Source: Macrostomum lignano (Eukaryota). From it: a stretch of 64,000 nucleotides of DNA. Position numbers and translations under genes: made by a program. A model generated the notes under the pieces. The model was given only the letters and a program-made list of their open reading frames with translations. It had not been told where the DNA came from and did no database searches. The stretch lies in the NCBI GenBank assembly GCA_002269645.1, contig NIVC01003152.1:52354-116353 (forward strand), in the 5' to 3' direction. Shown here piece by piece: positions 6,771-31,237 of this stretch (positions are counted from its first letter, which is position 1; every line of letters begins with the position of its first letter).

Positions 6771-6989
6771 GCCACGCTTTGATGTTGATAGATGTATATG
6801 TAGTTCGGACACTTTTGGTTACACCGGTTGCTTTGATACCTTTTACTGTTGCTAAATGCCTGCGGAGCCAAAAATGAGCGATGAGAACACCGATTCTGAA
6901 AAAATGTACATGTACGACTTCAGTCATGTACATGTACATGTAGAATTCCCGGCTTTGTCCCCCCACCATAAAATCCATGGCGACGCGGC

Positions 6990-7130
6990 ACTGGCCAATT
7001 CACCAGACCTGGCACCCTCCAACTTTATAATTACATGTAAGCTGCTCTGTCGACTTTTGCATGTAAATAAGCGGCCGCTCCGTGGGCCCCATTTCGAGTG
7101 TAACGAAGAGCTATAAGTCTCTAGGAACCT
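6990..7130 (+). mobile_element. Short degraded mariner transposase C-terminal fragment
   Basis: SPDLAPSNF (7000-7026) and LRGPHFECNEEL resemble mariner YSPDLAPSDF...LRGxxFxxxEE. Confidence 0.55.
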
Positions 7131-7264
7131 AACCCCTTGCCAACCAGTGGCTAGAGAATCAATCGGCAGAGTTCTACACGTACATATGTACATTAGCGAC
7201 ATCCGGGCGCTGCGCGACCGATTTCAAGAAGTGAATTGATCGCCAGGGAGGTTGACTTAACTTG

Positions 7265-8544: not shown

Positions 8545-8862
8545 GGTCGCGTACAGTCTGGCCGCCACACAGCTCCCCCCAGCAAAGAGCTAGGCCCCGA
8601 ACGTCGGGCGGTAGCCGAAGCAGCGAGATTGCCGAGGAGCAGAGTTGAAGAGGAGCGGGCGCCGAAATCAGCCGGGCGCCGAAGGCAGCAGGGGCGCGAG
8701 GCGGGCGCCGAAGGCAGCAGGGCGCCGGGCGGGCGCCGATTGCAGCAGGGGCGCGAGGCGAATTACACCCGAGGCAATCGACAGTCAGTTGCCGCCGTGA
8801 GCCGGGTCGATGCTCCTGCACAGAGGCTGGGGACGTTAGGCTAGCAGCAGCAGTGCTAACCT

Positions 8863-9115
8863 AGAATTAGCTGCAGCGTGTGGCGCTGGTTGGTCCAACG
8901 CGGGGGCCGAAAGGCGAGACCCCAGGAGCTACCGGGGGGGGGGGGGGCGGGCTGACTGGGCCGATTCGTGCTGCGGGGTACTGCCGTGGTTGCTGTGCTG
9001 CGGTGCTGCTGTGCTGCCGTTGCAGTCGGCCAAGGCGGTTGGCTGCCAGGACCGCACAGGGCTGTCCAGGTAGGCCCAGCGTTCCGCGCTGGGAGTCGGG
9101 CTCACCAATGAGGCG
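8863..9115 (-). mobile_element. Third 3'-terminal fragment of the RNase H LINE family
   Basis: Ends in the same AGAATTAGCTGCAG motif (plus-strand reading) as at 5591 and 7265; GC-rich, no recognisable domain. Confidence 0.45.
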
Positions 9116-9196
9116 GAAGGCCTTTTCATTTCAATAGATGGAATGGCAGCGAAAAGTTTTGTGCTGCTTTGCGCATATATTCATATTTACGCATTA

Positions 9197-9749
9197 CGTC
9201 TACCTCGGCGGTCTGTTTCCAGACGCTCGCGAGGACCTGCGACGCCGCCGCGGGCTTGCCTGGGCTGCCTTTCGTTCTGTGAGGGCAGTCCTAGCCTGCA
9301 GTCCGAGGCCCTACCGGACCGCCAGAGGGCGGCGCTGTTCCAGGCGGTAATCGAGACCGTCCTGCTCTACAACGCCGAGACCTGGACGCTGACGGACTCA
9401 CTCGAACAGCAAGTCGATGCGGCGCAGGCTGGCCTGCTGCGCGCCGCCTTCAACATCGACGTCGAGCGAGTCAACAACGCGGCACTCTATCGCCGCGCTG
9501 GCCTGCCACGTCCAAGCGATCTACTGCGCCGTCGGCGACTCCAGCTCGCAGGCCATCTCATCCGCGCCGAGTCGTACTGCCCACAGCCGGTGCAGGAGGT
9601 GCTGCTGCTCACGCTGCAGGCACCCTACCGGCGATGTCAAGCGCGAACTCGGCGTTACGTCGACTGTCTGCTGGCTGACGCCGACGCCCCGGACACTGCC
9701 GGTGGCGCGGCCTTTGTTCGCGCCCAAAGCCATGAAGCGCGCCCTGTGA
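9197..9749 (+). mobile_element. 3' fragment of the same RTE-like LINE family as 1-2130
   Basis: VYLGGLFPDAREDLRRRRGLAWAAF...LLYNAETWTLT...RLQLAGHLIRAE aligns with 1602-2130; small insertion near 9295. Confidence 0.88.
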
Positions 9750-9999
9750 CGCTAACTTTTGCCATCCTGACAACGTATTTTTAGTTATGTTGTTATATTT
9801 ACACAAACTGCGCGAGATTCATGAGGGGCCTATGGAGGTGCGAACAGGTGGCGTGGCATGATAGGCTACGCCAACCCCCCTGGCTTAGCGAGCCGGCTAG
9901 CCTGATGCGCAACAACCCCACCTCAGCTAGACAGAGGTTGGGGGGGTTTCCAGGGCGGCTGCACTGGTGCTGCCGGTCGCGTACAGTCTGGCCGCCACA

Positions 10000-10885
10000 G
10001 CAATGTATTTTGAACGGGAAAAGTTAGCGTCGGCAAGTTTACGTCGGCAATGTATTAGAATATATAATTTATAGAAAAAGTTAGCGTCGGCAAAATTTTA
10101 CGTCGGCAATGTATTTTGAACTGGAAAAAATAGCGTCGGCAAAAGTTTACGTCGGCAATGTATTAGAATATATAATTTATAGAAAAAGTTAGCGTCGGCA
10201 ACAGTTTACGTCGGCAATGTATTTTGAATGGGAAAAGTTAGCGTCGGAAAAAGTTTACGTCGGCAATGTATTTTGAACGGGAAAAGTTAGCGTCGGCAAA
10301 AGTTTACGTCGGCAATGTATTTTTAATGGGAAAAGTTAGCATCGGCAAAAGTTTACGTCGGCAATGTATTAGAATATATAATTTATAGAAAAAGTTAGCG
10401 TCGGCAAAAGTTTACGTCGGCAATGTATTAGAATATATAATTTATAGAAAAAGTTAGCGTCGGCAACAGTTTACGTCGGCAATGTATTTTGAACGGGAAA
10501 AGTTAGCGTCGGCAACAGTTTACGTCGGCAATGTATTTTGAACGGGAAAAGTTAGCGTCGGCAAAAGTTTACGTCGGCAATGTATTTTGAATGGGAAAAG
10601 TTAGCATCGGCAAAAGTTTACGTCGGCAATGTATTAGAATATATAATTTATAGAAAAAGTTAGCGTCGGCAAAAGTTTACGTCGGCAATGTATTTTGAAT
10701 GGGAAAAGTTAGCGTCGGCAACAGTTTACGTCGGCAATGTATTTTGAACGGGAAAAGTTAGCGTCGGCAAAAGTTTACGTCGGCAATGTATTTTGAATGG
10801 GAAAAGTTAGCGTCGGCAAAAGTTTACGTCGGCAATGTATTTTGAATGGGAAAAGTTAGCGTCGGCAAAAGTTTACGTCGGCAGT
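10000..10885 (-). repeat. Right-arm tandem array (inverse of 4285-4935)
   Basis: Unit GGCAATGTATTTTGAACGGGAAAAGTTAGCGTCGGCAAAAGTTTACGTC; more copies than the left arm. Confidence 0.9.
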
Positions 10886-12299
10886 GTATTTAAATGCAAA
10901 CAGTATATGCATGTAGTTGCGCACTGCAGAGACAGACCGGTAAGGAGTGTCGAGTGAGTCATCAATTCAGAATCACGCCATTTGCTTAAGTTTGCTTTGC
11001 TTTTTATTGGTAGGCGCCTTGTGGTGGCCTTGGGGATTTCCCTGTCAGCCACCCCATTCTACTTGTCATCAGTGTGCAGCCACCCCACTCCCTCTATGTA
11101 CATTTTAACGTCGGTTTAACGTCGGTAAAAACCGATCGGCCAAAGTTATATACATCTACAAGCCCTTTCAAAGAATTAGAATTAGACCTAAAACACACTT
11201 ACGTAATGAAAATAAAAGTGGGCCATTTTTTTCTGAAAACTACGATACCTTTTATCCCTACGCTCCAAATACGATCCCTCCAATACAATTTTATTAATAG
11301 TGTTATCGTAATTCGAAATAAACAAGCTCTTTTGGTTTTGTCTTACGATCACCTACATATAATTTCATCATTTGAAAGCTGATGATCGTGTGACAAAAGT
11401 AAATATAAGCTGGTGAATCTTTATCATTCCTTACCTTTTGTTCAGCTATCTAATTAATCCAACTCCAATTCTTCTAGAAATATATAATTCCACCCAAGCG
11501 GCCAAGCAGAAAAACTACGTATCCAATAGGTTAGACGTCTCTGATATGTAACTTTGGCATTCTTTCGTTTTACGATCCCCTTACATTTTTCCTATAGAAC
11601 ATGGCACTTTTGTTATACGATCCCCTATGTAAAAGATAGGAGTCTTGTTTGCATATCAGTGGAATATATTTGAAGCAAGATTAGGCCTACCCTAATTAAT
11701 TGTAAGCCACGATTCTTGGCAAGAGTAGGGACATCTCTATATTCACTTCCGTTATACAATCATTCAAATAGAGGAAATGTATGGAGAGGGGTTGGATAAC
11801 AAAACTTGGGCTTTTCATCAATTTTGTAATATGATCCCCCAAGTTGAAAATTTGTTTGCAGGGGATCATGTACATTGTCTAACCCATTGTCTAGGCTACC
11901 TGATTGTTTGGTAATTTTTGGTAATTGTTTTTTTACCAAACAATTTTATTAGTCATTGATTAAAGACAGAAAAAGTGATGGGTTTTAAATTTCTACTTTA
12001 AGTAGGTCCTAAGCATTTTAAATATGAAAATAAACATGAATAATTGTAAAACTAGCCCCAATGTTAATTTATACTATGAAAATTATGTCATAGGGTTTAT
12101 AAAATGCACAAGTCTTTTAAGGCCAAGTTTTAGAAATCTATATATATTATAATTGTCATAGGGATTTTGCTTTTATCGTTGCAAATGTCCTTAAATGCTG
12201 TTACCAAGTTATAACAAGGCTAAATCTATACTTTTTTAGAATTAGCCTTAGTATTGGTCTAAGTATATGTCTGAGTATTAGTCTAAGAATTATTCTTAG

Positions 12300-13153
12300 T
12301 GAGGCAGGCCCGATGTGTTTAATATTCACGTAACCATGATTTTAAATTTCCGCCAAACTACGCTTAACAACGCATTTTTGTTAGAACGAAATCTTTGTTT
12401 TAATGGGTTTGTTTTATTCGGGAAAATTATTTTGTTAAACCGCTATAAAGAAATTTGTTTATTCACGACCCGCGCACCCCACCTCCCCCTTTTTGAGACT
12501 ATAAATACAAGCGATTGCGGGCAATTTCCCCTTTGCCCGCCGTTTCCTCGATTCGGTCAAGAAAAGCAAAACGTGTTGTCTTAGTCACTGGAAAGCAAGA
12601 CAGGAGAAAAAGCTGTAAGAGGCCAGAAAAGCCGTAAGAGGCCAAGAAAGCTGTGAGAAGCCAGAAAAGCCGTAAGAGGCCAAGAAAAACTGTAAGAAGC
12701 CAGAAAAAGCCGTAAGAGGCCAGGAAAGCTGTGAGAAGCCAGAAATAGACGGTTGACGAGTCGGGCAACTCCTTCCCAGGGAGCCCGCAACTAAATATAG
12801 GGAATTAATAGTAGTAATAATAATAGTAGTGAGATTCATAATTACATGTAGACCAGTGTTTGCCGCTCGACACTGCTACCAGGGCGCCTTGCATAGATTC
12901 AAGGAGTCCTTAGATTAGAATTCTAGACTTGATATTTTCGAAGAAGCAGCAATTGACTAAGCAATTTTATGGAGTAATAACTATCTTAATTTACAACAAC
13001 TTGGTAACAGCAGTGGGATTTTAGCAGACAGAAATATCCCCTGCGACAACTTGGTGACATCGGTAGGATAGTCTACAATTTAGTTAAACACCCCCTGGTA
13101 CAACTTGGTGCCTGCGGTAGGATAATTTCTAGAGAGAGTTTAAGCCTGCAACA
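12300..13153 (+). repeat. 5' LTR (854 bp)
   Basis: TGAGGCAGG...CCTGCAACA. Identical by eye to the 3' LTR except one extra A (GAAATATCCC vs GAAATAATCCC). Contains ~19-20-bp AAAGCYGTRAGARGCC repeats (12608-12745). Confidence 0.95.
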
Positions 13154-13156
13154 ACT

Positions 13157-13175
13157 TGGTGGCAGCGGTGGGATT
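13157..13175 (+). promoter_or_regulatory. Primer-binding site complementary to the tRNA-Leu 3' end
   Basis: TGGTGGCAGCGGTGGGATT, 3 nt after the LTR, is the reverse complement of AATCCCACCGCTGCCA-CCA, the 3' end of metazoan tRNA-Leu(AAG/UAG). Confidence 0.85.
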
Positions 13176-13202
13176 GGAATCCGACTAAGTCGACCGCTAA
13201 AG

Positions 13203-13301
13203 CGAATAACGTGAGAGTACAGCAAATAACGTGAGAGTACAGCAAATAACGTGAGAGTACAGCAAATAACGTGAGAGTACAGCAAATAACGTGAGAGTAC
13301 A
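13203..13301 (+). repeat. 20-bp tandem repeat (about 5 copies) in the retrotransposon leader, abutting the gag ATG
   Basis: AATAACGTGAGAGTACAGCA repeated. Confidence 0.9.
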
Positions 13302-14201
13302 ATGGCAGCACTTAATGACGCTATAGGTTTATTAGCAGAGGAGCTTAGGAACAGGCTAGAACTAGGGCCTATGAGGCATGTAAAGATCCAAAAGTACACT
13401 CCCAGCCAGGATGTACGAATTTGGTTGACTGCATTCGATCAAAGGTGTGATCAGGAAGGAATAGATCAGGAGCACAGGAAAACTGAACTTCTAGCTAACC
13501 TAGATCTATCGACTGCGTTTGCAGCAGTGCAGCGATTAAATTTACCCGAGGATTTGACGTATGAGGAATTTAAGGAGAGATTGGTGGAAAGATTTGGCCG
13601 GATTGGTAGCTCATCTGAGTGCAGAGAAGAGTTTAGAGGTAGGATGCAGGGTAGAAACGAGGCAACCGACGTGTTCGCCGATGCTTTGATCGAACTAGCA
13701 GCTAGGGCGTTCCCAAATATGAACGCAGAACAGCGTGAAGAGGAAGTAATCGAGCAATTTATCAAGGGAGTAAGAATTTCCTCCGATACCCGGGAGAAAC
13801 TCATTTTTGCTCAGCCCACTAGCCTGCAGGAGGCCAGACGCATGCTTAGGAGAATAGAAGCAGCCTGGCATATGTCGCATAAGAACGGTGTCAGAGTCGT
13901 GAGAGACGAAGATGATGAGAAGAGCAAGTTAGAAAAGCTAATTAAGCAGCAGAAATCTGAGCTCGAAGAGCAGAAGAAGCTAATTCAGGAACTGCAAGCT
14001 GAAAAGCAGCAGCCGCCAGTTACTCAGACTAGGCCGCAATACTATCAGCCAAGAGTTCAGGCGTTCCAGCCACAGCTTCGCCCGCTGATGCAGCAGCAGA
14101 TAAGGAGGCAGATCCCGTGGAAGCCAACACAGAATGTAGTGCGACCTGGCTTTAACAACCAGAGTCGATTCCCTGCCCGCAACCCCAATCAGGGAAACTA
14201 G
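13302..14201 (+). CDS. gag: Retrotransposon Gag (capsid-like, Q/P/R-rich tail, no CCHC knuckle), 299 aa
   Basis: Intact ORF after the PBS with retrotransposon-capsid-like segments (IWLTAF, YEEFKERLVERFG, FRGRMQ, EQFIKGV). Confidence 0.85.
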   Translation: MAALNDAIGLLAEELRNRLELGPMRHVKIQKYTPSQDVRIWLTAFDQRCDQEGIDQEHRKTELLANLDLSTAFAAVQRLNLPEDLTYEEFKERLVERFGRIGSSSECREEFRGRMQGRNEATDVFADALIELAARAFPNMNAEQREEEVIEQFIKGVRISSDTREKLIFAQPTSLQEARRMLRRIEAAWHMSHKNGVRVVRDEDDEKSKLEKLIKQQKSELEEQKKLIQELQAEKQQPPVTQTRPQYYQPRVQAFQPQLRPLMQQQIRRQIPWKPTQNVVRPGFNNQSRFPARNPNQGN

Positions 14202-17200
14202 GATTCGAGGGTCGATATTCGAGGCCACGTCCCTCTAGGAAACCCCAAAGCGAAGCTCAGGCCTCTCATTTCTCCCGCAAACCCGTTTTCAACCCACTCC
14301 CTGGAGGATGGCGACAAGTCCCATTTTCCAGGAATTCAATGCGTAATGCACCAATGCGTAATGCACCAACGCGTAATGCACCCATGTATAGAGCACCAAT
14401 GCGTAATGCACCTGTAAACAGCGCGTCTCCCATCGCGCTATCTCCTAATATGTTTGAGTTATTGGCGTCAGAGCCCAGTGAGTCAGATGCAAAAGCATCA
14501 GCATCCGAGTTGACAAAGTCCCCAGTGACTAAGCCAGCAAATGCAAAGCAGAAGGCGAGAAAATCTCGCAAAGCGAAATATCGAGAAGCTAAGAAAGCAG
14601 CTGAGAAAGCAAAAGTTGAATTGATAAGCGAGAAAAGTAGCGAAGCAATTGTCTTTGGAGACGTTGAAGGTCAAGAAATTGACTTCTTGCTTGACACCGG
14701 AGCCGGAAACTGCTTCCTGAGCAAGTCAGTATGGTCCAAGGTGATCAAGACAGAGCAAATCAGAGAAACCAATAAGAGAGTTACCACATTTGATGGTTCC
14801 TCAGTGCAGCTAGAAGGAGAAGCTAGTGTGTCTGTAACCTTTGGAGATATTCAAATTAATATTAGCTTTTTGCTGTGCAGCTATGAATGTGATAACATTC
14901 TTGGCATGGACTTCTTCCTTTCTCACTGCAAAAGCATTGATTTAGATAATGGCATGCTTGTTCTAAAGAGAGGCCTCTGTGTGCCTATGCAGTACACCCG
15001 CCAAGCAGTTAGAATTTGCCGAGTTTATACTCGAGAAAAGGCAGTAGTACCTGCTAATAGTGCATTGAGAGTTCCCATTAGGCTAGCGAAAGACCATGAG
15101 CTCAATCATGGCACTCCTATGACAGTAGAAGTGATCGGAGAAGGCGTGAGAGCCAAGGAATTGACAGTAGAGATGGTTCCGACATTGGTCACCATGAGAG
15201 ACGGCAGTGCCATCGTGGAGATCGTGAATCGACACTCTGTCGACGTGAGACTGCCGAAGTCGACATTGATTGGTCTGGCCAAGCCCATGAGAGCCAAGGA
15301 CCTCGTCTACTGGTCAGCATCGCCTTCCGCCGCCGAATCAGCTTCGCCGACAATTGCCGAAGATGCCGCACAACCCGCCGGACGTGTCTATCAAGCTCAG
15401 GCAACTGAAGATGCTTGGGTGAGCGAAATTAGTATTGGTGCCAATTTATCTGAAAGTCAGCGAAAAGCAGTAATTGATCTCGTGAGAGAGAATAGAGAAG
15501 CATTTTCCCAGCATGATTTAGACATGGGATTGACTCATCTAGTCACTCATGAAATTTCCCTGAAGGACGAGACCCCTGTTAGAATCCCTACCCGCCGCAT
15601 CCCCCCTCATCTCCAAAAGCAAGTCGACGCCCAGCTAGACGACATGCTAGCCAAGAATCTCATTCGCCCCTGCTATTCTACCTATTCTACCCCATTAGTC
15701 ATTGTGCCAAAGAAGGATGGCACCATCCGAATAGTGAGTGATTTCCGAGTGCTCAACTCTAGAGTTAACTATTTTCCCTATCCCCTCCCCAATATTCAAG
15801 AAACTTTTTCTAATCTTACTGGCAGTAGGTACTTTAGTAGTTTAGATCTTAACTCAGGTTATTGGCAAGTGCCTATAAAGGAAGAGCATAAGTTCATGAC
15901 CGCGTTCTCTACTCTGACGCGAGGACAGTTTGAGTACCAGGTTATGGCGCAAGGGTTATCCAACGCGCCCGGTACATTTCAAAGACTGATGAACTTAGTG
16001 CTAGCCGGAATCCAGCATAAGTTTGCAATGTCGTATATTGACGATATAGTTACTTACTCGAAGCAATTTGAGGAGCATTTATCCCATCTAAGAGAGGTGT
16101 TTCAGAGATTGATCACCGCAGGTTTAAAGTTGAGAGCGAAAAAGTGCAACTTATTTCACTCTGAACTCAAGTATCTAGGCCATGTGATAGGCAGAGATGG
16201 CATTCGCACAGACGAAGCCAAGATTGAAGCCATTAGGACCTGGCCAAAGCCAAAGGAAGTAAAGGAATTAAGAAGCTTTTTAGGATTGTGCAACTACTAC
16301 AGCAGATTTGTCAAAAATTATGCTGAAGTAGCGCATCCTCTTTTCCAGTTGACTCGTAAGGGAGTTCAAAACTTCCAAGCAAAATGGACAGCAAAGCATG
16401 ATGAAGCGTTTGAGCTATTGAAAACCCGTATGATGAGTACTGACGTGTTAGCATACCCTGAGTTCATAGATGATGAGAAGGTGAAGATGGTTCTCGATGT
16501 AGACGCCAGTGATGGACGCATAGGTGCCTGTTTGGGACAAATCCAATCAGACGGTGTCGAGAGACCAATCGCCTACTTTAGTCGCGCTATGAAGGAGTCA
16601 GAAAAACGCTATCCCATAACTCGCAAGGAGTTGCTAGCTCTAGTAGATGCCATGAGGCATTTCCGCTTCTATCTAATAGGAAAGAAATTTCTAGCTAGGA
16701 CCGACCATAAGGCTATACTTTGGTTATTAAGGCAGACAGAAGCCCAGGGCATTTTAGGCAGATGGATTGAGCGCCTCAACGAGTTTCAATTTGAAATCGA
16801 GCATAGGAGTGGCGCGAAACATTCAAATGCCGATAGCTTGTCCCGAAGGCCAGCCGAGGCTGCCCAGCCAGATTGTAAAGCCAATGAGAAGGCGGAAGCC
16901 GAGAAGAAGAGTCGAGAGATAAGCAAAATCACCAGCAAAGGCGTAAGAGCCGAAGTGAACCAAGAGATAAGAACTGATAAAGAGGAGTTTATCCCCAGCG
17001 AACGCGTGTGTGCAAAGCAGAACCAGAATGGGAAGGCTAAGGACAGCATGAGCGATCTGACCCAGCCCCCCACTGAGCTGAGAGAAGGAGAGACCAACCC
17101 CCCTGAGCCACAGAGGAATAAAATAGTCTCTGGTGAGAAGAGTGTAAGGATTGACAGTGTGAAAACACAGAGCTCCTGCATTATGCAATCGAGCAGAGTC

Positions 17201-18946
17201 ACCCCACAATCTGAGCACAGTGAGGAGTATGGCACGCTGAAGGTTGGAGCATTATTAGTTGACTTCCTACCCAACCCCCTGCGGAGAGAGCAGATCGTTA
17301 ATGCCCAGCGAGAAGACCCCAATATTCGCACTTTGCTAAATTGCAAACTCGAAGAAAAGGAACCCCCCGCCGAGCAAAAGAGCATTAGCTCAGAATTAAG
17401 GCAGTTGAGCAAATTTTACGAGTTAATGAAAATCGAAAGCGATATGCTTGTTATTGAAGAAGAAGGAGTAAGCAAAATTGTGTTGCCAGTGTCGCTGGAC
17501 AAATTAGTGCTGGCTGATCTACACGATAGCCCACTAGCAGGACACTTGGGTCGTGACAAGACAGTGCAAAGAGTTAGGGAGAGATTTTGGAGACCTGGCT
17601 TAGTGACAGCCATTGAGAAGTACATATCTGAGTGTATTCCGTGTTTGGAAAGCAAAAGAGGATGCCCTGTTCAGGCTCCAGTGCAGTCATTCCCAGTCAA
17701 CGAGGCATTCCACCGCCTGCATATTGATATCATAGGCCCCATTTCGAAAGAAAGCAAGAGAGGCCATAGATATGTGCTGACTGTAGTTGATAGCACTACC
17801 CGCTACCCATTCGCGTTCCCGATCCGTAATCAGAAGTCTGATACCGTGATCAAGATCTTACAGGAGCGAATTTTCAGCGAATATGGTCAATGCCATTGGA
17901 TACATACTGACAATGGGAAAACCTTCACAAGCAGACAGTTTAAAGCGTTTTGCGATTTGTACAATGTTAAACACACTTGTACCACCCCGTACCATGCCCA
18001 AAGTAATGGCTTGGTAGAGAGGTTTAACAAGCAAGTGAAATCCATCATTACCTGTTTAATTAAGAAGGACCATAGCAATTGGGATTTAATGATCCCAGCA
18101 GCGCTTGTTGCAGTGCGCACTAGTGTGAATCAAACCACAGGCTATTCACCCCATTTCCTGTTATTCGGAAGGGAGCCAGTTTTGCCACTAGACAGTCAAA
18201 TTCGCCAGCCAAATCAGTACTCAGACTATCCAGCCTATGTCGCAGATCATGCCGAAAGGCTAGAAATTGCCAGAAAAATCGTGAGAGATAAGCTCGAGAA
18301 AGTTGCTGATAATAGAAAGAATATTGCTGAAACAGCCAAGCAGCCTAAGGAAGTATCAGTAGGGAGTTTAGCGCTAATAAATAACCCGCAGTTAGACAAT
18401 GAGGAGTCTAACAAATTTCACAGAAAGAAGAGAGCCGCCTATAGAGTGATCGAACAGATCTCAGATGTAGTATTTAGAGTGCAGAGAGAGGAAGATGGTG
18501 AGCTTGTAGGGAATAAATTATTAGTGCATAGGGACAATTTAACACTAGTTCCTAATTCGACCGCAGAATTGCCAATTAAGGGAAGCCAGCAGGAGAAGCA
18601 CCGGAAGAAAAATCAGTCGAGGAGGGAACCTAAAGCTAAGGGAAGCCACCCGCCGAGGAAGCATAAGGAGGTAGTGATTAGTGAAGAGTCTGAGTCTGAC
18701 ACTGAATCTGAAGATGAACGAGTGCAATGGCAATGCCAACTGAGAGAATCCGAAACGGAACCAGCAACTGAGAGCGAAGATGAGAGCCAAGAGTCAGAGA
18801 GTGCAGTAGAAGAAGAAGGAATAATGAGCAATGCAGAAGACGCCAGAGAGAACAATGAGATTGAGCATGAGCACGAGGAAGCTAATTCAGAGAGGAGATA
18901 CAATACACGCAGGCAGGTCAGGCCCCCAAGTGCTATTGTTGCTTGA
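14198..18946 (+). CDS. pol: Pol polyprotein (protease, RT, RNase H, integrase), reached by -1 frameshift
   Basis: FLLDTGA; SYIDDIV; LDVDASD and ARTDHKA; H-x-GHLG...CIPC, HIDIIGP, TDNG, NGLVERFN. The frame is open from 14198, 47 codons before the ATG at 14339. Confidence 0.95.
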   Translation, partial: LGFEGRYSRPRPSRKPQSEAQASHFSRKPVFNPLPGGWRQVPFSRNSMRNAPMRNAPTRNAPMYRAPMRNAPVNSASPIALSPNMFELLASEPSESDAKASASELTKSPVTKPANAKQKARKSRKAKYREAKKAAEKAKVELISEKSSEAIVFGDVEGQEIDFLLDTGAGNCFLSKSVWSKVIKTEQIRETNKRVTTFDGSSVQLEGEASVSVTFGDIQINISFLLCSYECDNILGMDFFLSHCKSIDLDNGMLVLKRGLCVPMQYTRQAVRICRVYTREKAVVPANSALRVPIRLAKDHELNHGTPMTVEVIGEGVRAKELTVEMVPTLVTMRDGSAIVEIVNRHSVDVRLPKSTLIGLAKPMRAKDLVYWSASPSAAESASPTIAEDAAQPAGRVYQAQATEDAWVSEISIGANLSESQRKAVIDLVRENREAFSQHDLDMGLTHLVTHEISLKDETPVRIPTRRIPPHLQKQVDAQLDDMLAKNLIRPCYSTYSTPLVIVPKKDGTIRIVSDFRVLNSRVNYFPYPLPNIQETFSNLTGSRYFSSLDLNSGYWQVPIKEEHKFMTAFSTLTRGQFEYQVMAQGLSNAPGTFQRLMNLVLAGIQHKFAMSYIDDIVTYSKQFEEHLSHLREVFQRLITAGLKLRAKKCNLFHSELKYLGHVIGRDGIRTDEAKIEAIRTWPKPKEVKELRSFLGLCNYYSRFVKNYAEVAHPLFQLTRKGVQNFQAKWTAKHDEAFELLKTRMMSTDVLAYPEFIDDEKVKMVLDVDASDGRIGACLGQIQSDGVERPIAYFSRAMKESEKRYPITRKELLALVDAMRHFRFYLIGKKFLARTDHKAILWLLRQTEAQGILGRWIERLNEFQFEIEHRSGAKHSNADSLSRRPAEAAQPDCKANEKAEAEKKSREISKITSKGVRAEVNQEIRTDKEEFIPSERVCAKQNQNGKAKDSMSDLTQPPTELREGETNPPEPQRNKIVSGEKSVRIDSVKTQSSCIMQSSRVTPQSEHSEEYGTLKVGALLVDFLPNPLRREQIVNAQREDPNIRTLLNCKLEEKEPPAEQKSISSELRQLSKFYELMKIESDMLVIEEEGVSKIVLPVSLDKLVLADLHDSPLAGHLGRDKTVQRVRERFWRPGLVTAIEKYISECIPCLESKRGCPVQAPVQSFPVNEAFHRLHIDIIGPISKESKRGHRYVLTVVDSTTRYPFAFPIRNQKSDTVIKILQERIFSEYGQCHWIHTDNGKTFTSRQFKAFCDLYNVKHTCTTPYHAQSNGLVERFNKQVKSIITCLIKKDHSNWDLMIPAALVAVRTSVNQTTGYSPHFLLFGREPVLPLDSQIRQPNQYSDYPAYVADHAERLEIARKIVRDKLEKVADNRKNIAETAKQPKEVSVGSLALINNPQLDNEESNKFHRKKRAAYRVIEQISDVVFRVQREEDGELVGNKLLVHRDNLTLVPNSTAELPIKGSQQEKHRKKNQSRREPKAKGSHPPRKHKEVVISEESESDTESEDERVQWQCQLRESETEPATESEDESQESESAVEEEGIMSNAEDARENNEIEHEHEEANSERRYNTRRQVRPPSAIVA

Positions 18947-19029
18947 AGCGGCTGGCCACTGTGCTGTCTTTGTTGAACAATCTCAGTTTCTGAGTGGAGG
19001 AGAAGGAAGGAAGGAGAAGGAGGAGTGAG

Positions 19030-19250
19030 AGCCAATGAGAGGAGGCGTAGAAGTGAAGGGATTTCGAGGCCGTGGATAGGGGGAGAGAGGCGAAGAGACC
19101 GACAGCCAATAAGGAAGAATCATCAGCCAATGAGAGAAGACCTGCCATTTAAACAAATAATTGTTTGTTTGAATAAGCTTGAAACATGATACCCCCCAAA
19201 GTGGAATGTTTGTAAACCTATATAAGCGAGATCCCTGACGCAATCAGTTC
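19030..19250 (+). promoter_or_regulatory. Putative internal Pol II promoter upstream of ORF3
   Basis: AGCCAAT at 19030, 19104 and 19125; TATATAA at 19219-19225; TCAGTT (Inr-like) at 19244-19249; ATG at 19320. Confidence 0.6.
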
Positions 19251-19319
19251 CTCATCCTCAACAGAGCAATAAGGCAGCAATTAAGTAGCAATAAAGAAGC
19301 AGTCAAGAGCAAATCCGTT

Positions 19320-20791
19320 ATGGATAAAGAAAACGAAGAGTTAAATATTTTAGCAGACGGTAGTGAATTTGACGATCTATTAAAAGAGCTTGAAGGGCCT
19401 TGGCCCATGCAGCAAGATGAGCAAACTGAGCAACCACAGCCAGAGCGTTCAGCGCAGCAAAACGAGCAAGAACAGCTAGCTGAGGCCCCGTCGCAGCCGC
19501 CTGCTACGCAGCAGCCTGCCCGACGCTGGCACCGCCGTCAGAGCCATTACGGGAGCGTCAGCCAGCTGACCTGCCCGGGCCCTCGCAGCCACCGGAGCCC
19601 TCCACCAAGCCAAAGCGACCTGCTGCGGAAACGGATCAGGGTACACAAGCAAAGAGGCCGGCCCCGTCAGGGCTGCCAGTGTCCCAGGATCCGGCAGCAC
19701 GACAGGAGCTCGTTAGAGTAAAGTCGGTGCAGTCCGTGGTGGTAAAACCGACGGTGATGCAGAGGCACCCGGCTGGCGCGCGGCCCACACTGATGTTAGC
19801 TGCCCCGCCTCAGCAGCAGCGGCCGGCTCAGCGGTCGCAGCCTCGGCGTGTGGCGTCGCGAGCAGAAGTCCGACAGCAGCTGCCAGTGCACCGCAGGCTG
19901 GCTCCGCGGCCGCCGCCGCAGCAGCGCCAGCAGTCGCCGCCGCAGCGCCGCCACCAGTCTCCGCCGCGGCACCGTCAGCAGCCACCGCCGTCTCAGCACC
20001 GTCAGCAGCCACCGCCGTCTCAGCATCATCAGCAGCCACCGCCGTCTCAGCATCATCAGCAGCCACCGCCGTCTCAGCATCATCAGCAGCCACCGCCGCC
20101 TCAGCATCATCAGCAGCCACCGCCGTCTCAGCATCATCAGCAGCCACCGCCGTCTCAGCATCATCAGCAGCCACCGCCGTCTCAGCATCATCAGCAGCCA
20201 CCGCCGTCTCAGCATCATCAGCAGCCACCGCCGTCTCAGCATCATCAGCAGCCACCGCCGTCTCAGCATCATCAGCAGCCACCGCCGTCTCAGCATCATC
20301 AGCAGCCACCGCCGTCGCATCAGCAGCCGCCACCGCAGACTGCAGTGCCACCACAGGCGTCAACCTGCCGTGCAGCTGCAAGTTATTTGTTTGCCCCCGG
20401 CAACCAAGACATCCAAAGGCTTGCTGCGATGGGCGCCGACTTCAGCGCCATCATGGACGGTTTGTCGCCAGAACAGCAGGCAAGAATGAAGCGACTGATT
20501 GCTGCCCTGAAGGAATATCTAATGCGAATCGGCCACTTGCGGTTGGACCGGCCGCTGCCACAGCGGGCCCAGGTCCGGCCAGCCTGCATTGTGCTTCGCC
20601 AAGAATTCACGCCTGAGCAAGCTGTCGCGGCTTGGCGCCGCGCCGTGAATTACGTACTTCATGACCTGAATGCGGCTGGCCAGCCGTACTTTCGCACGCT
20701 GCTTATCATCGAGATTAAGTGGCTCGCCGAGCAAGTCGGATGGCCTCTACGCGACCTTTTGCCGGACGAATTTAATCTGAATGATAATTAG
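19320..20791 (+). CDS. Accessory ORF3 of the Gypsy element (~490 aa if one base lost near 19520 is restored): acidic N-terminus, P/Q-rich linker, QQPPPSQHH repeats, ~140-aa helical C-terminal domain
   Basis: The two ORF-track ORFs overlap in adjacent frames; the second frame is open 19484-20791, and joining at ~19520 gives a compositionally continuous protein. No signal peptide or TM segment, so not env-like. Confidence 0.7.
19976..20338 (+). repeat. 27-bp coding tandem repeat (QQPPPSQHH, about 13 copies)
   Basis: CAGCAGCCACCGCCGTCTCAGCATCAT units, nearly invariant. Confidence 0.92.
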
Positions 20792-21159
20792 GTGACTATA
20801 ATTGAACTGTCATGTACTGTTATTTTTTCGCATTGCATGCATACCTATTTAGCCTTCACTAATTTGCATGGATACTTATTTGGCCAAAATTCTTGTGTGC
20901 TCAACTTTGTGCAACTTTATATTTAGCCAAACATCTTTTTGTACGCTCAACTTCGTGCCATTTTAATAATAGCCAACCTTGCTCAATTCTTCCACTAACT
21001 ATATTACTGATATTACCATGTTGTGTGCTGTTTTAATGTTTTAGTGTCAGCCAATTTTATCTAGTGCCTACGTTTTGTGATTAAAAGCCCCTTTTGCACT
21101 TTAACTACACATTTATTCACTCACTAGTTTATTCATAAATATGTAGAAGGGAAGCCAGT

Positions 21160-22014
21160 TGAGGCAGGCCCGATGTGTTTAATATTCACGTAACCATGAT
21201 TTTAAATTTCCGCCAAACTACGCTTAACAACGCATTTTTGTTAGAACGAAATCTTTGTTTTAATGGGTTTGTTTTATTCGGGAAAATTATTTTGTTAAAC
21301 CGCTATAAAGAAATTTGTTTATTCACGACCCGCGCACCCCACCTCCCCCTTTTTGAGACTATAAATACAAGCGATTGCGGGCAATTTCCCCTTTGCCCGC
21401 CGTTTCCTCGATTCGGTCAAGAAAAGCAAAACGTGTTGTCTTAGTCACTGGAAAGCAAGACAGGAGAAAAAGCTGTAAGAGGCCAGAAAAGCCGTAAGAG
21501 GCCAAGAAAGCTGTGAGAAGCCAGAAAAGCCGTAAGAGGCCAAGAAAAACTGTAAGAAGCCAGAAAAAGCCGTAAGAGGCCAGGAAAGCTGTGAGAAGCC
21601 AGAAATAGACGGTTGACGAGTCGGGCAACTCCTTCCCAGGGAGCCCGCAACTAAATATAGGGAATTAATAGTAGTAATAATAATAGTAGTGAGATTCATA
21701 ATTACATGTAGACCAGTGTTTGCCGCTCGACACTGCTACCAGGGCGCCTTGCATAGATTCAAGGAGTCCTTAGATTAGAATTCTAGACTTGATATTTTCG
21801 AAGAAGCAGCAATTGACTAAGCAATTTTATGGAGTAATAACTATCTTAATTTACAACAACTTGGTAACAGCAGTGGGATTTTAGCAGACAGAAATAATCC
21901 CCTGCGACAACTTGGTGACATCGGTAGGATAGTCTACAATTTAGTTAAACACCCCCTGGTACAACTTGGTGCCTGCGGTAGGATAATTTCTAGAGAGAGT
22001 TTAAGCCTGCAACA
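21160..22014 (+). repeat. 3' LTR (855 bp)
   Basis: Near-identical to 12300-13153; ends CCTGCAACA followed by TSD TTAG. Confidence 0.95.
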
Positions 22015-22132
22015 TTAGTATTTATCTCAGTATTATTCTAAGTATTAGTTATCCCTTATATTGGTAGCATTTCTAGCATTCTCACTGTTATTCTAGTAGC
22101 ATTGTATGCAAATTTGACCTGAGCAGTATATA

Positions 22133-23580
22133 CCTGATTGTTGGGACATTTTTTTACATTTGTTACAAGTTTATTCAATATAACACTTTTCTGTACAACA
22201 AGGTTATCAATCTTAAATGTAGTCACCATCATGGTCAATAACTATCTGCCAGCATGTATGTAGGGAGCGGATGCCCTGGCTATAGAACCCCGGGCACTGG
22301 CCCTCAAACAAGTTTGTCAGGTTGTCCTCGTCATTGAATTGCTGGCCGGCCAAAGAATGGTCAAGGGCAGCAAACATGTGATAACTGGTAGGTGCAAGAT
22401 CTGGGCTGTATGGTGGGTGGGGAAGAATCTCCCAGCCTACTCATAGCTTGAGGAGCAGCTTCTGATGGGTCAACTGTGCCTTGTGCGCAGGTGCATTGTC
22501 ATGCAGCAAGATGACCTGGCAATATTCAAGGTGCACCTCAGCCAGCTTCTGCTGCAGGCGCTCAAGCTGCTCCTGGTAGAAGGAGCATTGATACTATTGT
22601 TCATGCTTGGGCGCAACCTTGGGATTCACTCGGCCGTTTCTATTGGCAACACACACATGTAAGTCGCTATTGGACGGAATAGTAGTCACGTGACTGCTCT
22701 CAGCCAATAGCGACTTACATGTGTGTGTTGCCAATAGAAACGGCCAGGTGATTCCCAAAGTTGCGCATGTATGCTATTGTTCTTTGGCAGCAGCTCCCAC
22801 ATTATGATTCCTTTCGTGTCCTAGAAGACTGAAAGCATGACCTTTTTGGGGTATAGTTCAGCCTTGGCCTCTCGCTCTGGCTTTGCATCCAAATCAACCC
22901 ACTGTTGCTCGCATTGGATGTTGATGTAGAGGCACTATTTTTTGTCACCTGTCACCACATCATCCAGCCAATCCAGATGGCAGGATCAGGAGAGCATGGT
23001 GAGGGCAGCCTCAATATGCCGGTCCTTGTCAGTGGCAGTCAGCTGGTAGGGCACCCAACATCCCAGCTTTGGTTTCTTGTTCAGACAGTGAAGGTGGTCA
23101 GCAACAGTGGAATGATGCACACCTAGCTGCGTGGCCAGCTTATGCGTAGTCTGCTGGGTGTCCCACTCAAGCAGTTGCTCAAGTGCACTGTCGTCAAGCT
23201 CTGCCAGCTGGCCATTGTGGGGCTTGTCTTTAAGGCCCTCATCTCCATCTTTGAATTGCCTGAACCAATTGTTGGTAGTCTGATGGGTGAGGGTTCCTGC
23301 ACCAAAAGTAGCATTGATGTCAGTGGCCAATTGTCTTGCATTCTTGCCAGAGCAATAGTCATAGAGAAGCAGAATTTGCTGCAGGTCTTTTGAGTACAGA
23401 GTATCTTTCGCCGTTTCAGCATTTCAGACAGTTGAGCAAAGAATTTTTTATCTATTGTAGTTTTTTATGCACATTACACTACTATTTATATGTACATTAC
23501 ATTAAGAATGTCCCAGAATGTTCCAAAACAGGCAAAAATAGAATATTATGGAATTTAAAAGTACTTTATTGACAATCAGA
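22133..23580 (-). mobile_element. Decayed mariner (DD34D) DNA transposon, interrupted by a MITE
   Basis: Minus strand gives QILLLYDY..GKNA, WFRQFKDGD, LGCWVPYQLT, VTGD-like, LLHDNAPAH, HPPYSPDLAPTSYHMF, WQIVIDHDGDYI*. Degenerate TIRs (CCTGATTGT / ACAATCAGA) flanked by TA. Confidence 0.88.
22602..22773. mobile_element. 172-bp palindromic MITE, 8-bp TSD, same terminal family as 1223-1520
   Basis: TSD CTATTGTT (22594-22601 and 22774-22781). Right end GTTGCGCATGTATG. About 65-bp inverted arms. CpGs retained, unlike the host mariner. Confidence 0.88.
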
Positions 23581-27999: not shown

Positions 28000-30900
28000 A
28001 TGATTTTCTTTTGTTGCAGCAAAGGTGCCAACAATTTGTGCAATTTCTTTCACTCTCGACCGCCACTTGTCATTTTTTTATTTAACTTAATAATATTTGC
28101 TGCTGCACTTTTGTTTCTGTCCTACTGGATTCAGTATAATGATATGCAGAACCCTGATGCCACTAAGGTTGGTTATATTCTTAATTATTTCATAATTCAT
28201 TATCTTTGAGGTGCTACTGACAGTAGGCATTGAGACTTAGTATTGCAATTTGAAATCTGAGAATTTTTCGTAATAAAAAAACACTAGTACTAGAAATCCC
28301 AAATCTTACTATGCTTATCTTTGATCAAAATAGAATCTATTATTTATCACAAAACTCAATCAAATTGAAGTTATCTAGAAGCCAAGAATATTCCAAATAT
28401 AATAATTCCAAACTATCAGATATATTGATCCTAAATTCCAAATCCCACGATCCCACATCTCATGATCACAAATTTCATGATCCCAAATCTCTTGATCCCA
28501 AATCCCATGATCCCAATCCCATGATCCCAAATCCAATGATCCCAAATCCGATGATCCCAAATCCCATAATTCCGAATTCCATGATCCTAAATCCCATGAT
28601 CCCAAATCCCATGATCCCAATCCCATGATCCCAACCCAAATCCAATGATCCCAAATCCCACGATCCCAAACCCATGATCCCAAATCCAATGATCCCAAAT
28701 TCCAAGATCCCAAATCCCATGATCTCAAATCCTCATTATCCTAACTCTCATGCTCTTAAATCCTAATGACTCCACCCCAAGAATCCAAAAACTTAAGATT
28801 CCCCAAAATTGTAGAAATTCCAAATTCCAACAATGTCACAAATCTCAGAGCGCTCTCTCCCTCTGCTCCACCCTTCACACGCAGGACTGGAACAGATTTC
28901 TGGAACGATTCGCCTCAATGGAGATCTGCCTGACGGGCAACAAGTCTTATCCATTCATTCGTCGTCTGTCGGCTTTCACCATAGACGGCGACAGCGCCAT
29001 CGACTTGCCGCAGCCGGTGGCTCACGCGCAGCCGCGGCTGAAACTGCACCGCATGCTGCTTGGGGTGGAGCTGGACGATAAGCAGAGACACGCGCTGTCG
29101 AACTATTCAATACTGATTGGAGCTATCAGTGGCAGACTGTTGGGGCTTAGAGATCGAAGTACAGCTTATCAGGTGTGCGGATCCAAATTGTAATTATTAA
29201 AAAGGTTACCGTGACCAGAATCGTTCTTTTTAACAACTCAAGTCGCGAAAAAAGTCTTGCAAATAGTCGTTTGTGTTAGCGCTTAACTTTCTACTAATTC
29301 AAGTAGACTAAATGGAGTGAAATGCGATTTTAATTCATAAAGTGACGCAACTCAGTGATTCTATACAGCGACTTGACCTCTCTTGTACCGTGACATCTCG
29401 TTGCTTAAGAGTCAAATAGAGTCGATTCTTTCTTATTTTACCTGTGTTACCTGAAATTACTGGTTTAAAGTATTATTAACATAAACTCTCTCCCCAGGTG
29501 ATCAACATCACGGCTGTGATACCCCAGTTGCCAAAGAAGCGTGACAAAATCTGCGTCGAAATGGTCGGTCCCGAGTCGATCTTCCCTCGAACGAAGCCGC
29601 CCCGCCAGTGCGGCAGCCCGAGCTTTGATCTCTCCAGACGTCTGCTGTCTAGCGGAGATCCAACGCCCAGCCTGAGGATGTCCTACATGTACATATTCAA
29701 GACTGTGTACTGGTCCAGTTTGTTCTTTTGTAGTTCTGGGCAGCCCAGACTGAAGCTGAAGTACTCGCATAATCCTCGGCTTACTGAGATGCTATCGACT
29801 GTGAGTGATTTTAATTTTACTTAATTATTGTCCTCTGCTATCCGTAGGGGTCTGAGCGTGAGCTGAAAACCCTAAGCTTGTAGGTTTAGCTTTCACAGAT
29901 CCCTAAGCTTGTAGGTTTGGCATTCACAGATCCCTGTAATTGTAGGTTTAGCATTCACAGATCCCTGTAATTGTAGGTTTAGCATTCACAGATCCCTGTA
30001 ATTGTAGGTTTCGCATTCACAGATCCCTGTAATTGTAGGTTTAGCATTCACAGCTCCCTGTAATTGTAGGTTTCGCATTCACAGATCCCTGTAATTGTAG
30101 GTTTAGCATTCACAGATCCCTGTAATTGTAGGTTTCGCATTCACAGCTCCCTGTAATTGTAGGTTTCGCATTCACAGCTCCCTGTAATTGTAGGTTTCGC
30201 ATTCACAGATCCCTGTAATTGTAGGTTTAGCATTCACAGATCCCTGTAATTGTAGGTTTCGCATTCACAGATCCCTGTAATTGTAGGTTTAGCATTCACA
30301 GATCCCTGTAATTGTAGGTTTCGCATTCACAGCTCCCTGTAATTGTAGGTTTCGCATTCACAGATCCCTGTAATTGTAGGTTTAGCATTCACAGATCCCT
30401 GTAATTGTAGGTTTCGCATTCACAGCTCCCTGTAATTGTAGGTTTCGCATTCACAGATCCCTGTAATTGTAGGTTTAGCATTCACAGCTCCCTGTAATTG
30501 TAGGTTTCGCATTCGCAGATCCCTGTAATTGTAGGTTTAGCATTCACAGATCCCTGTAATTGTAGGTTTCGCATTCACAGCTCCCTGTAATTGTAGGTTT
30601 AGCATTCACAGCTCCCTGTAATTGTAGGTTTCGCATTCACAGATCCCTGTAATTGTAGGTTTAGCATTCACAGATCCCTGTAATTGTAGGTTTCGCATTC
30701 ACAGCTCCCTGTAATTGTAGGTTTCGCATTCACAGCTCCCTGTAATTGTAGGTTTCGCATTCACAGATCCCTGTAATTGTAGGTTTAGCATTCACAGATC
30801 CCTGTAATTGTAGGTTTAGCATTCACAGATCCCTGTAATTGTAGGTTTAGCATTCACAGCTCACTAAAAAGCATCAGTAATCATTCACAGATCACTAATA

Positions 30901-31237
30901 CCCTCCTCAACATGCCATTGTCACACAGGAGGAGAAATATGTAGCAGAGGAGAACCTGTCTCACACGGCTTACGTAATCAGCGTACTAATCGCTTGCTTC
31001 TTGATCTATGCCGCCACATTCGGGTCACACAGTAGAAACTCGGGCCTGTCGTCGGCAGCTACTGGTGGTACTGGCGACAGCCCCATGTACCGCAGTCTGA
31101 GCCTATCAACTGACCCGGATAGCGAGTCTGCTAGCTTGAGAGTGCGAAACAGCCTGTCACTGTCGGCCGAGACTAGCGATGTATTTCTTACACAGCAGCA
31201 GCAGCAGCAACAGCACCATCAAGAGCAGAAGGAGTAG
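28000..31237 (+). CDS. TMEM248: TMEM248-like two-TM protein; exons 28000(or 28020)-28167, 28885-29172, 29498-29800, 30929-31237
   Basis: Spliced peptide ..NLCNFFHSRPPLVIFLF..YW..NPDATK|DWNRFLERFASMEIC..|VINIT..C..FPRTKPPRQC..NPRLTEMLST|EEKYVAEENLSHTAYVI.. matches recalled TMEM248 motifs (SRPPLVVF, DWNTFLLRF, EEINIT, NPKLT, HTSYFL). All GT-AG and phase-compatible. Confidence 0.85.
28440..28730 (+). repeat. ~15-bp degenerate tandem repeat in intron
   Basis: ATCCCATGATCCCAA units. Confidence 0.9.
29875..30865 (+). repeat. 31-bp minisatellite (about 32 copies) in intron
   Basis: TGTAGGTTT(A/C)GCATTCACAG(A/C)TCCCTGTAAT. Confidence 0.93.

What the first reader, a model, noticed from the sequence alone, without database searches (positions are those of the whole stretch)
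19030..20791. Gypsy element carries a non-env third gene with its own promoter and a prion-like Q/P/H repeat
Between the pol stop and the 3' LTR lies a sense-strand gene preceded by three NF-Y-type AGCCAAT boxes, TATATAA and an Inr-like TCAGTT at appropriate spacing, so it is probably expressed independently of the LTR. The predicted protein has an acidic N-terminus, a long disordered P/Q region with about 13 QQPPPSQHH repeats and a ~140-aa helical C-terminal domain that I do not recognise. It lacks the signal peptide and TM anchor of Env. Since LTRs, gag and pol are essentially pristine, this looks like a functional accessory gene (candidate anti-silencing, transactivator or condensate-forming factor). 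One apparent 1-nt deletion near 19520 (GCCCG) may be copy-specific or a sequencing error.
Basis: partly seen in the sequence, partly recalled or inferred. Interest (0 to 1): 0.76.

Follow-up and report, generated by a model that had tools for sequence, protein, structure and literature searches.

The report
Flatworm retrotransposon's unknown third gene
A young Gypsy retrotransposon, likely from the flatworm Macrostomum, carries a third, non-envelope gene of an undescribed protein family that is likely read from its own internal promoter and is predicted to be a nuclear activator of the element, a kind of helper seldom reported for animal retrotransposons.

Summary
A young Ty3/Gypsy element (12300-22014; LTRs with 0 substitutions) carries a third gene of about 490 codons between pol and the 3' LTR. 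The host is likely Macrostomum lignano (pol 88% identical). The frame break near 19520 is absent from bridging contigs in 4 of 4 runs. Of 8 listed variants in the gene, 7 are synonymous, switching frame at the break (P about 0.002). The C-terminal ~105 residues form a confidently predicted helical bundle (pLDDT 86) with no Pfam, PDB or viral fold match. Four homologue clusters at 29-39% identity were found, three named M. lignano. The full-length homologues share an acidic N-terminal motif and short linker motifs but lack the Q/P/H repeat, so the 'prion-like' reading is not supported. It is not Env. The CCAAT-TATA-Inr cluster exceeds chance, and a sister family aligns across it, but no start site was shown; trans-splicing is a live rival. 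Best guess for function: a Tas-like nuclear transactivator (about 0.4), with anti-silencing next. Whether the homologues lie in LTR elements was not testable. New variant of a known kind.

The parts
12300..13153 (+). 5' LTR, 854 nt, TG...CA; TATA-like TATAAA at 12500; 19/38-nt array at 12608-12745; three PBS-like units near its 3' end
13157..13174 (+). Primer binding site, 3 nt after the LTR (tRNA-Leu type; identity recalled, not tested)
13302..14201 (+). gag, 299 aa, no zinc knuckle; GGGAAAC slippery-type heptamer at 14192-14198 just before the stop
   Evidence: (Retrotrans_gag E 0.014, weak)
14156..18946 (+). pol in the -1 frame: protease, RT, RNase H, integrase, acidic tail; the last codons are uncertain because a length difference near the end is not shared by other runs
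19030..19249 (+). Candidate internal Pol II promoter: three AGCCAAT, TATATAA (19219), Inr-like TCAGTT (19244)
   Evidence: motifs, shuffles; sister family aligns over 18883-19247
19248..19319 (+). Short 5' leader with no upstream ATG; pyrimidine-rich stretch ending in CAG at 19262-19264, a possible splice acceptor
19320..19517 (+). Third gene, N-terminal part (first frame): acidic segment (17 D/E, 3 K/R in 66 aa) with SEFDDLLKE motif
19520..19974 (+). Third gene, basic P/Q/R linker (second frame) with motifs PLR, KRP, SVVVKP, RPTLM, echoed in homologues
19975..20336 (+). In-frame 27-nt minisatellite, 13.5 copies, encoding QQPPPSQHH; absent from homologues
20435..20791 (+). Conserved C-terminal helical-bundle domain and stop codon
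20792..21159 (+). AT-rich 3' region (34% GC), ATTAAA at 21080, polypurine tract at 21145-21154
21160..22014 (+). 3' LTR, 855 nt; TTAG on both flanks of the element is the likely 4-bp target duplication

Best explanation
This is a third, non-envelope gene carried by a young Gypsy retrotransposon family, likely transcribed from its own internal promoter, whose product is predicted to be a nuclear activator of the element's own transcription. Steps: (1) shown: the gene lies between pol and the 3' LTR and other samples carry it there unbroken; (2) shown on few sites: it is under purifying selection and has old relatives; (3) inferred: CCAAT boxes, TATA and Inr drive a separate mRNA from about 19246; (4) inferred: the basic helical domain binds DNA or a chromatin factor on the element, and the acidic N-terminal helix recruits co-activators, as foamy-virus Tas does. 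The repeat is a recently expanded flexible spacer. My odds: real gene 0.93; internal promoter 0.7; activator role 0.4.
For: Contigs of 4 of 4 runs from 4 studies bridge the frame break and do not share it; in 3 of the 4 a single listed contig runs from the pol end across both promoter and break. Of 8 listed variants in the gene, 7 are synonymous, read in the first frame before the break and the second after it; 2.7 expected, P about 0.002; pol control 22 of 31. Four homologue clusters at 29-39% identity with 14 invariant columns. Three are named M. lignano gene models, which were built from RNA-seq (PMC5730564, passages). The model has pLDDT 85.9. Eleven conserved basic columns against two acidic ones. 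An acidic hydrophobic-helix motif sits at the N-terminus of all 3 full-length proteins. Promoter motifs exceed shuffles. A sister family about 90% alike aligns over 18883-19247 and falls below 85% right after the Inr. Precedent for a promoter in the spacer after pol: Tor4b (PMC4402516, passages).
Against: No start site, localisation, DNA binding or activation was shown. The acidic tips do not align better than shuffles (466 and 470 of 2,000), nor does the linker against P0003 (1,115 of 2,000); only the linker against P0008 does (4 of 2,000). The activation-domain pattern is recalled and loose: 2 acidic matches occur in pol. Net charge of the domain is only mildly positive (15 K/R, 11 D/E). P0005/P0009 lack the acidic tip and most of the linker. 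The variant test rests on 40 of 107 rows, pooled over runs. CCAAT spacing is atypical. The genomic context of the homologues is unseen.
Confidence: 0.4

Rival explanations
1. The gene is real, but its product is an anti-silencing factor: it binds the element's chromatin or a host small-RNA or silencing protein and relieves repression, as VANC does for VANDAL transposons.
For: The 5' coding part diverges faster than the promoter in the sister family. A GWP motif ends the domain in 4 of 5 clusters; GW motifs can bind Argonautes (recalled). The element has short internal arrays (19/38 nt in the LTR, 20 nt before gag), and VANC acts through a short tandem motif (PMC6719617, passages).
Against: A single GW next to a folded domain is not a typical Argonaute hook (recalled) and P0005/P0009 lack it. 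Fast divergence is expected of a disordered linker anyway. The acidic tip is not needed for this role.
Confidence: 0.25
2. The protein works after transcription, as a cofactor of particle assembly, RNA handling or integration-site tethering.
For: Gag has no zinc knuckle. The domain has conserved arginines. The weak fold neighbours include helical-repeat RNA and translation factors such as MIF4G, MA3 and W2 domains.
Against: All fold matches are at background level (best Z 7.7, rmsd 3.5, 114 aligned). A separate strong promoter is less needed for a stoichiometric particle component.
Confidence: 0.15
3. The gene is expressed by spliced-leader trans-splicing or cis-splicing of the LTR-driven RNA, and the promoter-like motifs are an enhancer or chance. 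This concerns expression and can combine with any function.
For: 38.8% of M. lignano transcripts have a trans-splicing site (PMC5730564, table passage). A pyrimidine-rich stretch ending in CAG lies at 19248-19264, and the sister's loose letters are also pyrimidine-rich and end in the same 8 letters as 19260-19267. Bdelloid ORF3s are said to come from spliced messages (PMC5408684, passage).
Against: A strict acceptor pattern found no site. CCAAT, TATA and Inr occur in the right order, with 27 nt from TATA to the Inr A.
Confidence: 0.25
4. The gene is a captured host gene or a passenger with no role for the element.
For: The named homologues are filed as ordinary M. lignano gene models, and their surroundings could not be read.
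Against: No relative was named from any other organism in a search of 1.84 billion representatives. The gene has no intron. One homologue has an identical protein under two different gene-cluster names, which fits mobile copies. Variants are mostly synonymous.
Confidence: 0.1
5. The Q/P/H repeat is the functional core and makes a prion-like or condensate-forming protein.
For: The repeat is long, in frame and 97% homogeneous; His- and Gln-rich tracts occur in nuclear-body proteins (recalled).
Against: It is absent from P0003 and P0004/P0008. It is 35% P, 34% Q, 20% H and 10% S with no N, Y or G, unlike prion-like domains (recalled). Its homogeneity marks a recent minisatellite expansion.
Confidence: 0.05
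6. It is a diverged Env or small fusogen.
For: Only its position after pol.
Against: No hydrophobic segment (maximum 0.68), an acidic N-terminus, 2 cysteines in the C-terminal part, and an all-helical soluble model.
Confidence: 0.02

Closest known systems
Tor3b/Tor4b Ty3/Gypsy elements of Oikopleura (PMC4402516; passages read)
   Same: Third gene after pol; in Tor4b the mRNA starts at an internal promoter in the spacer after pol, as proposed here.
   Different: The Tor third gene is a membrane Env glycoprotein and its start was mapped by RACE; here the protein is soluble, of no known family, and the start is unmapped.
Foamy-virus Tas (PMC7828637, passages for the internal promoter and Tas; domain layout recalled)
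   Same: Accessory gene next to the 3' LTR, internal promoter, proposed role as transcriptional activator with an acidic activation segment.
   Different: Tas belongs to env-bearing spumaretroviruses; no sequence or fold likeness was found; the acidic segment here is N-terminal; function is untested.
Non-env ORF3s of bdelloid rotifer LTR retrotransposons (PMC5408684; abstract and passages)
   Same: Animal Gypsy-type elements with a family-specific, non-env third gene.
   Different: Those are GDSL esterases, DEDDy exonucleases, TM or coiled-coil proteins, said to be expressed by splicing; this one has none of those domains.
VANC anti-silencing proteins of Arabidopsis VANDAL transposons (PMC6719617; passages)
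   Same: Element-encoded accessory protein proposed to act on its own family; short tandem motifs inside the element.
   Different: VANDAL are plant DNA transposons countering DNA methylation; no homology was seen.
Burro elements of planarians (PMC6431247; passages)
   Same: Flatworm Gypsy elements with extra coding capacity.
   Different: Burro are over 30 kb, with recognisable host-like domains (BIR, MATH, ankyrin) mostly inside a polyprotein; this is a 9.7-kb element with one separate unknown gene.
M. lignano hypothetical proteins PAA77797/PAA83213, PAA76031/PAA60020, PAA73844
   Same: Same C-terminal domain, 32-39% identical; PAA77797 has the same acidic-tip, linker, domain layout.
   Different: No Q/P/H repeat; unannotated; genomic context unseen.

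Membership tests
Ty3/Gypsy LTR retrotransposon | Two direct LTRs with TG...CA ends | tested here: met
   854 and 855 nt, 0 mismatches, 1 gap
Ty3/Gypsy LTR retrotransposon | pol order protease, RT, RNase H, integrase | tested here: met
   Pfam hits at pol residues 168-254, 517-678, 744-877, 1111-1280; best solved relative Ty3 RT, E 3.5e-74
Ty3/Gypsy LTR retrotransposon | PBS, PPT and target-site duplication | tested here: met
   PBS 13157-13174, purine tract 21145-21154, TTAG on both flanks; the target is itself a degenerate 12-nt repeat, which weakens the TSD call
Gmr1/Osvaldo clade (one of four Gypsy clades in M. lignano, PMC12801592) | RT groups with Gmr1/Osvaldo references | not tested
   No labelled reference sequences were at hand; the -1 frameshift, 4-bp TSD and knuckle-less Gag fit the clade from recall only
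Env-bearing Gypsy elements (errantiviruses, Tor) | Third ORF with signal peptide and transmembrane anchor | tested here: not met
   Maximum 19-residue hydropathy 0.68; acidic N-terminus
Env-bearing Gypsy elements (errantiviruses, Tor) | Fold of a viral fusion glycoprotein | tested here: inconclusive
   No significant match of any kind in PDB or BFVD; the model is a small helical bundle
Tor4b-type internal promoter | Capped mRNA starting in the spacer after pol, without LTR sequence | not testable with these tools
   Only assembled contigs were available; motifs are present
Foamy-virus Tas | Encoded by an env-bearing spumaretrovirus | tested here: not met
   Element is a Gypsy retrotransposon without env
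Foamy-virus Tas | Sequence or fold homology to Tas | tested here: inconclusive
   No Pfam hit above cut-off; no fold match
Foamy-virus Tas | Binds and activates LTR and internal promoter | not testable with these tools
   Needs reporter and binding assays
Bdelloid enzymatic ORF3s (GDSL, DEDDy) | GDSL or DEDDy catalytic domain | tested here: not met
   No such Pfam hit in any of 7 family members; all-helical model with no strands
VANC anti-silencing proteins | Homology to VANC and family-specific relief of silencing | tested here: inconclusive
   No homologue outside the four clusters; activity not testable
Prion-like domain proteins | Low-complexity region rich in N/Q/G/S/Y and poor in proline (recalled), kept across homologues | tested here: not met
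   35% P, no N, Y or G; absent from homologues
BEN domain | BEN fold | tested here: inconclusive
   Considered from a by-eye likeness; no BEN entry among the listed rows

The most novel reading that the evidence does not exclude
A clade of Macrostomum Gypsy elements has long carried its own regulator: a Tas-like or VANC-like protein with a new helical fold, made from an NF-Y/TATA internal promoter, that switches on or de-silences its own family. It would be a complex-retrovirus-style regulatory circuit in an envelope-less animal retrotransposon, in a species with RNAi and transgenesis.
Probability: 0.35. Interest if true: 0.85.

Novelty: new variant of a known kind. Interest (0 to 1): 0.58.

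Why it matters
Extra genes are known in animal LTR retrotransposons, but the described ones are mostly Env, small membrane proteins or captured enzymes. A 2019 review (PMC6719617, passages) knew transposon-encoded anti-silencing mechanisms only from plants. Here is a selected, soluble, folded protein of no known family in a young element, with diverged relatives in a tractable stem-cell model. If it regulates its own family, it makes the question of whether animal retrotransposons actively counter host control directly testable. If not, it is still an undescribed domain family.

Tried and rejected
No whole genome is held for this window, so copy-level dN/dS and the context of homologues could not be done. 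Expression: no RNA holder listed; three runs guessed to be RNA hold contigs that run through the predicted start site at flat depth, which says nothing on start or level. The contig start at 19256 in one run lies at the branch with the sister family and is not a start site. Searches that found nothing: longer homologues of the domain, 0 of 1,566 candidates; profile search, only P0003 and P0004 among 8,000 candidates; metagenome and viral contigs, 0 of 322 and 0 of 73 pattern matches; ESM Atlas, hits under 0.9 or none; Pfam and PHROGs, nothing above cut-off or below E 0.004; PDB sequences, best E 0.74; folds, 0 of 48,161 chains at Z 8 or more and 0 at E 0.001 in PDB and BFVD. The first, single-sequence model (pLDDT 58) was set aside. 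P0002 and P0007 (2 of 6 hits) were dropped as repeat-driven bacterial or metagenome matches. BEN and LEDGF-IBD likenesses got no support. The third + frame (19717-20616) has no Met and its variants are non-synonymous. The internal promoter is not an LTR copy. Rfam 0, tRNA 0. Accession order did not link any homologue to a pol gene. Literature: no held paper names the five Mlig gene ids; no listed paper (15 of 53 shown) mentions M. lignano; PMC12801592 has no whole-word ORF, env or internal promoter in its main text, and the five motifs searched were not found in its supplement 5, whose long runs are cut. The 2020 classification paper that it cites was not seen.

Full report
The element. The finding lies inside a complete Ty3/Gypsy retrotransposon at 12300-22014. 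Its LTRs (854 and 855 nt) share 854 identical positions with no mismatch and one gap. A primer site follows the 5' LTR, a purine tract precedes the 3' LTR, and TTAG flanks both ends. The target is itself a degenerate 12-nt repeat, so the duplication call is weaker than usual. gag (299 aa) overlaps pol in the -1 frame at a GGGAAAC heptamer. pol has protease, RT, RNase H and integrase in Gypsy order.

The host. The RT/RNase H part is 88% identical to a Macrostomum lignano protein, and 9 of the 10 members of that cluster carry this name; a second M. lignano protein is 66% identical; the other 118 listed hits are at most 50%. All 24 listed runs carry one species label. The host is therefore likely M. 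lignano or a close relative. The clade was not tested; Gmr1/Osvaldo is my guess from recalled features.

The observation. In 20,000 shuffles of the spacer, 2 had three AGCCAAT and 64 had three CCAAT (either strand) plus a TATA box. The test is post hoc. The TATA-to-Inr distance is 27 nt. The CCAAT cores lie 119-214 nt upstream, further than usual (recalled).

The frame break. I laid 4 of the 24 listed runs, from 4 studies, on 17500-19900. In all 4 the contig that bridges the break near 19520 does not share it. A second length difference near the pol end is likewise absent from all 4, and the LTR pair differs by one gap only. This pattern points to errors in this assembly, though a copy-specific change is not excluded. 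In 3 of the 4 runs one listed contig runs from the pol end through the promoter and past the break, so the cassette is part of the family and not a one-off insertion.

Selection. The tool listed 40 of 107 substitution rows. Eight fall in the third gene. Three of the four before the break are synonymous in the first frame, and all four after it are synonymous in the second frame: 7 of 8, against 2.7 expected for changes of the same types (P about 0.002). In pol, 22 of 31 are synonymous. The numbers are small and pooled over runs, but the switch of frame at the break is what one continuous gene predicts.

A sister family. One contig in each of two runs aligns over 18883-19247 with 32 other letters and 6 gaps in 361, then continues below the 85% threshold. 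The non-coding promoter region is thus better kept than the 5' part of the gene. The sister's substitutions were mostly among the rows not shown, so I cannot say that its boxes are intact.

The protein family. A search of 1.84 billion representatives gave 6 hits. Two are repeat-driven and were dropped. Four share the C-terminal ~105 residues at 29-39% identity, with 14 invariant columns over 7 sequences. Three clusters are M. lignano hypothetical proteins and one is unnamed. GenBank's M. lignano models derive from RNA-seq (PMC5730564, passages), so relatives are likely transcribed. The full-length relatives P0003 and P0008 have the same layout: acidic tip, P-rich linker with PLR, KRP and further short motifs, then the domain. 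The linker aligns with P0008 better than shuffles (4 of 2,000) but not with P0003 (1,115 of 2,000), and the acidic tips alone are not significant (466 and 470 of 2,000). Neither relative has the Q/P/H repeat.

The fold. With the 5-sequence alignment the domain folds at pLDDT 85.9, pTM 0.79, as five helices. No match stands out: best Z 7.7 (rmsd 3.5, 114 aligned), none of 48,161 chains at Z 8, none at E 0.001 in PDB or BFVD. Pfam has nothing above cut-off for any of 7 members. A blank does not prove a new fold. There is no membrane segment, so it is not Env.

How it most likely works. The layout is that of a transcription regulator: an acidic segment with a hydrophobic helix motif at the same place in all 3 full-length proteins, basic KRP patches, a long disordered linker, and a compact domain with 11 conserved basic columns against 2 acidic. 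I commit to a nuclear activator that is made from the internal promoter and acts on the element's LTR, as Tas does in foamy viruses (0.4). Every functional step is inference. The pattern used is recalled and loose, the domain is only mildly basic overall, and two short relatives lack the acidic tip. Anti-silencing (0.25) and a particle or integration cofactor (0.15) are the main rivals. On expression, trans-splicing is a real alternative, since 38.8% of M. lignano transcripts carry such a site and a pyrimidine-rich CAG lies at 19248-19264. The prion-like reading is unlikely: the repeat is a 97% homogeneous minisatellite, 35% proline, with no N, Y or G.

Comparison with what is known. Tor4b elements express a third gene from a promoter in the spacer after pol, but it is Env (PMC4402516, passages). 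Bdelloid elements carry non-env ORF3s, but these are enzymes, TM or coiled-coil proteins (PMC5408684, abstract and passages). Foamy viruses have an internal promoter and Tas (PMC7828637, passages). VANC is the model anti-silencing protein (PMC6719617, passages). Burro elements carry host-like domains (PMC6431247, passages). The recent M. lignano survey (PMC12801592; parts 1-2 of 6, word searches, supplement 1, and searches in the supplements) does not discuss extra genes in what I saw. PMC13524379 has no mention of Macrostomum. My searches found no description of this gene. Repbase reports and the 2020 classification paper were not visible, and consensus sequences for most families were not among the supplements that I could read.

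Verdict. It is a member of the Ty3/Gypsy group with a real accessory gene of an undescribed protein family. It may work like Tas or VANC but is a member of neither. New variant of a known kind; interest 0.58. A separate oddity, three extra primer-site-like units inside each LTR, is listed under things noticed in passing.

Noticed in passing
window 12999-13123 and 21859-21984: Each LTR holds three PBS-like 21-mers, each 3 mismatches from the true one at 13154-13174, each preceded by an LTR-end-like ACA and separated by unrelated 29-33-nt spacers. All fit a tRNA 3'-end template (recalled), so they may be former primer sites or sites for other tRNAs. The first folds back on its spacer. One paper search found no description.
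   Followed up: partly
window 18900-18946: A length difference near the pol 3' end is not shared by contigs of 4 of 4 runs, so the pol stop at 18946 may not be the family's true end.
   Followed up: partly
window 18650-18900: Integrase ends in a long acidic tail; the 88% relative P0010 has one too.
   Followed up: no
window 12608-12745, 13201-13301, 14337-14412: Short internal arrays: 19/38 nt in the LTR, 20 nt x 5 ending at the gag ATG, 15 nt x 5 in early pol. Candidate binding sites if the third protein is sequence-specific.
   Followed up: no
window 21080-21085: ATTAAA upstream of the purine tract may give the third gene its own poly(A) site; the LTR has no AATAAA.
   Followed up: no
window 4028-4751 and 10432-11155: 724-nt inverted repeats, 98% complementary, with internal tandem units, enclosing 5.7 kb that includes non-LTR retrotransposon remnants.
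   Followed up: no
window 54-2028, 5748-8860, 9074-9784: Broken non-LTR retrotransposon pieces (RT C-terminal and RNase H-like text; labels recalled).
   Followed up: no
window 22611-22766 and 22986-23423: A 156-nt self-complementary stretch and, on the minus strand, a mariner-like transposase fragment (label recalled) just downstream of the element.
   Followed up: no
window 12241-12300 and 22015-22050: The element sits in a degenerate 12-nt TTAG-containing tandem repeat.
   Followed up: no
window 29723-31000, 43640-44570, 49110-50700, 59870-61200: Long minisatellite arrays of 31, 34, 12 and 16 nt that create spurious long ORFs.
   Followed up: no
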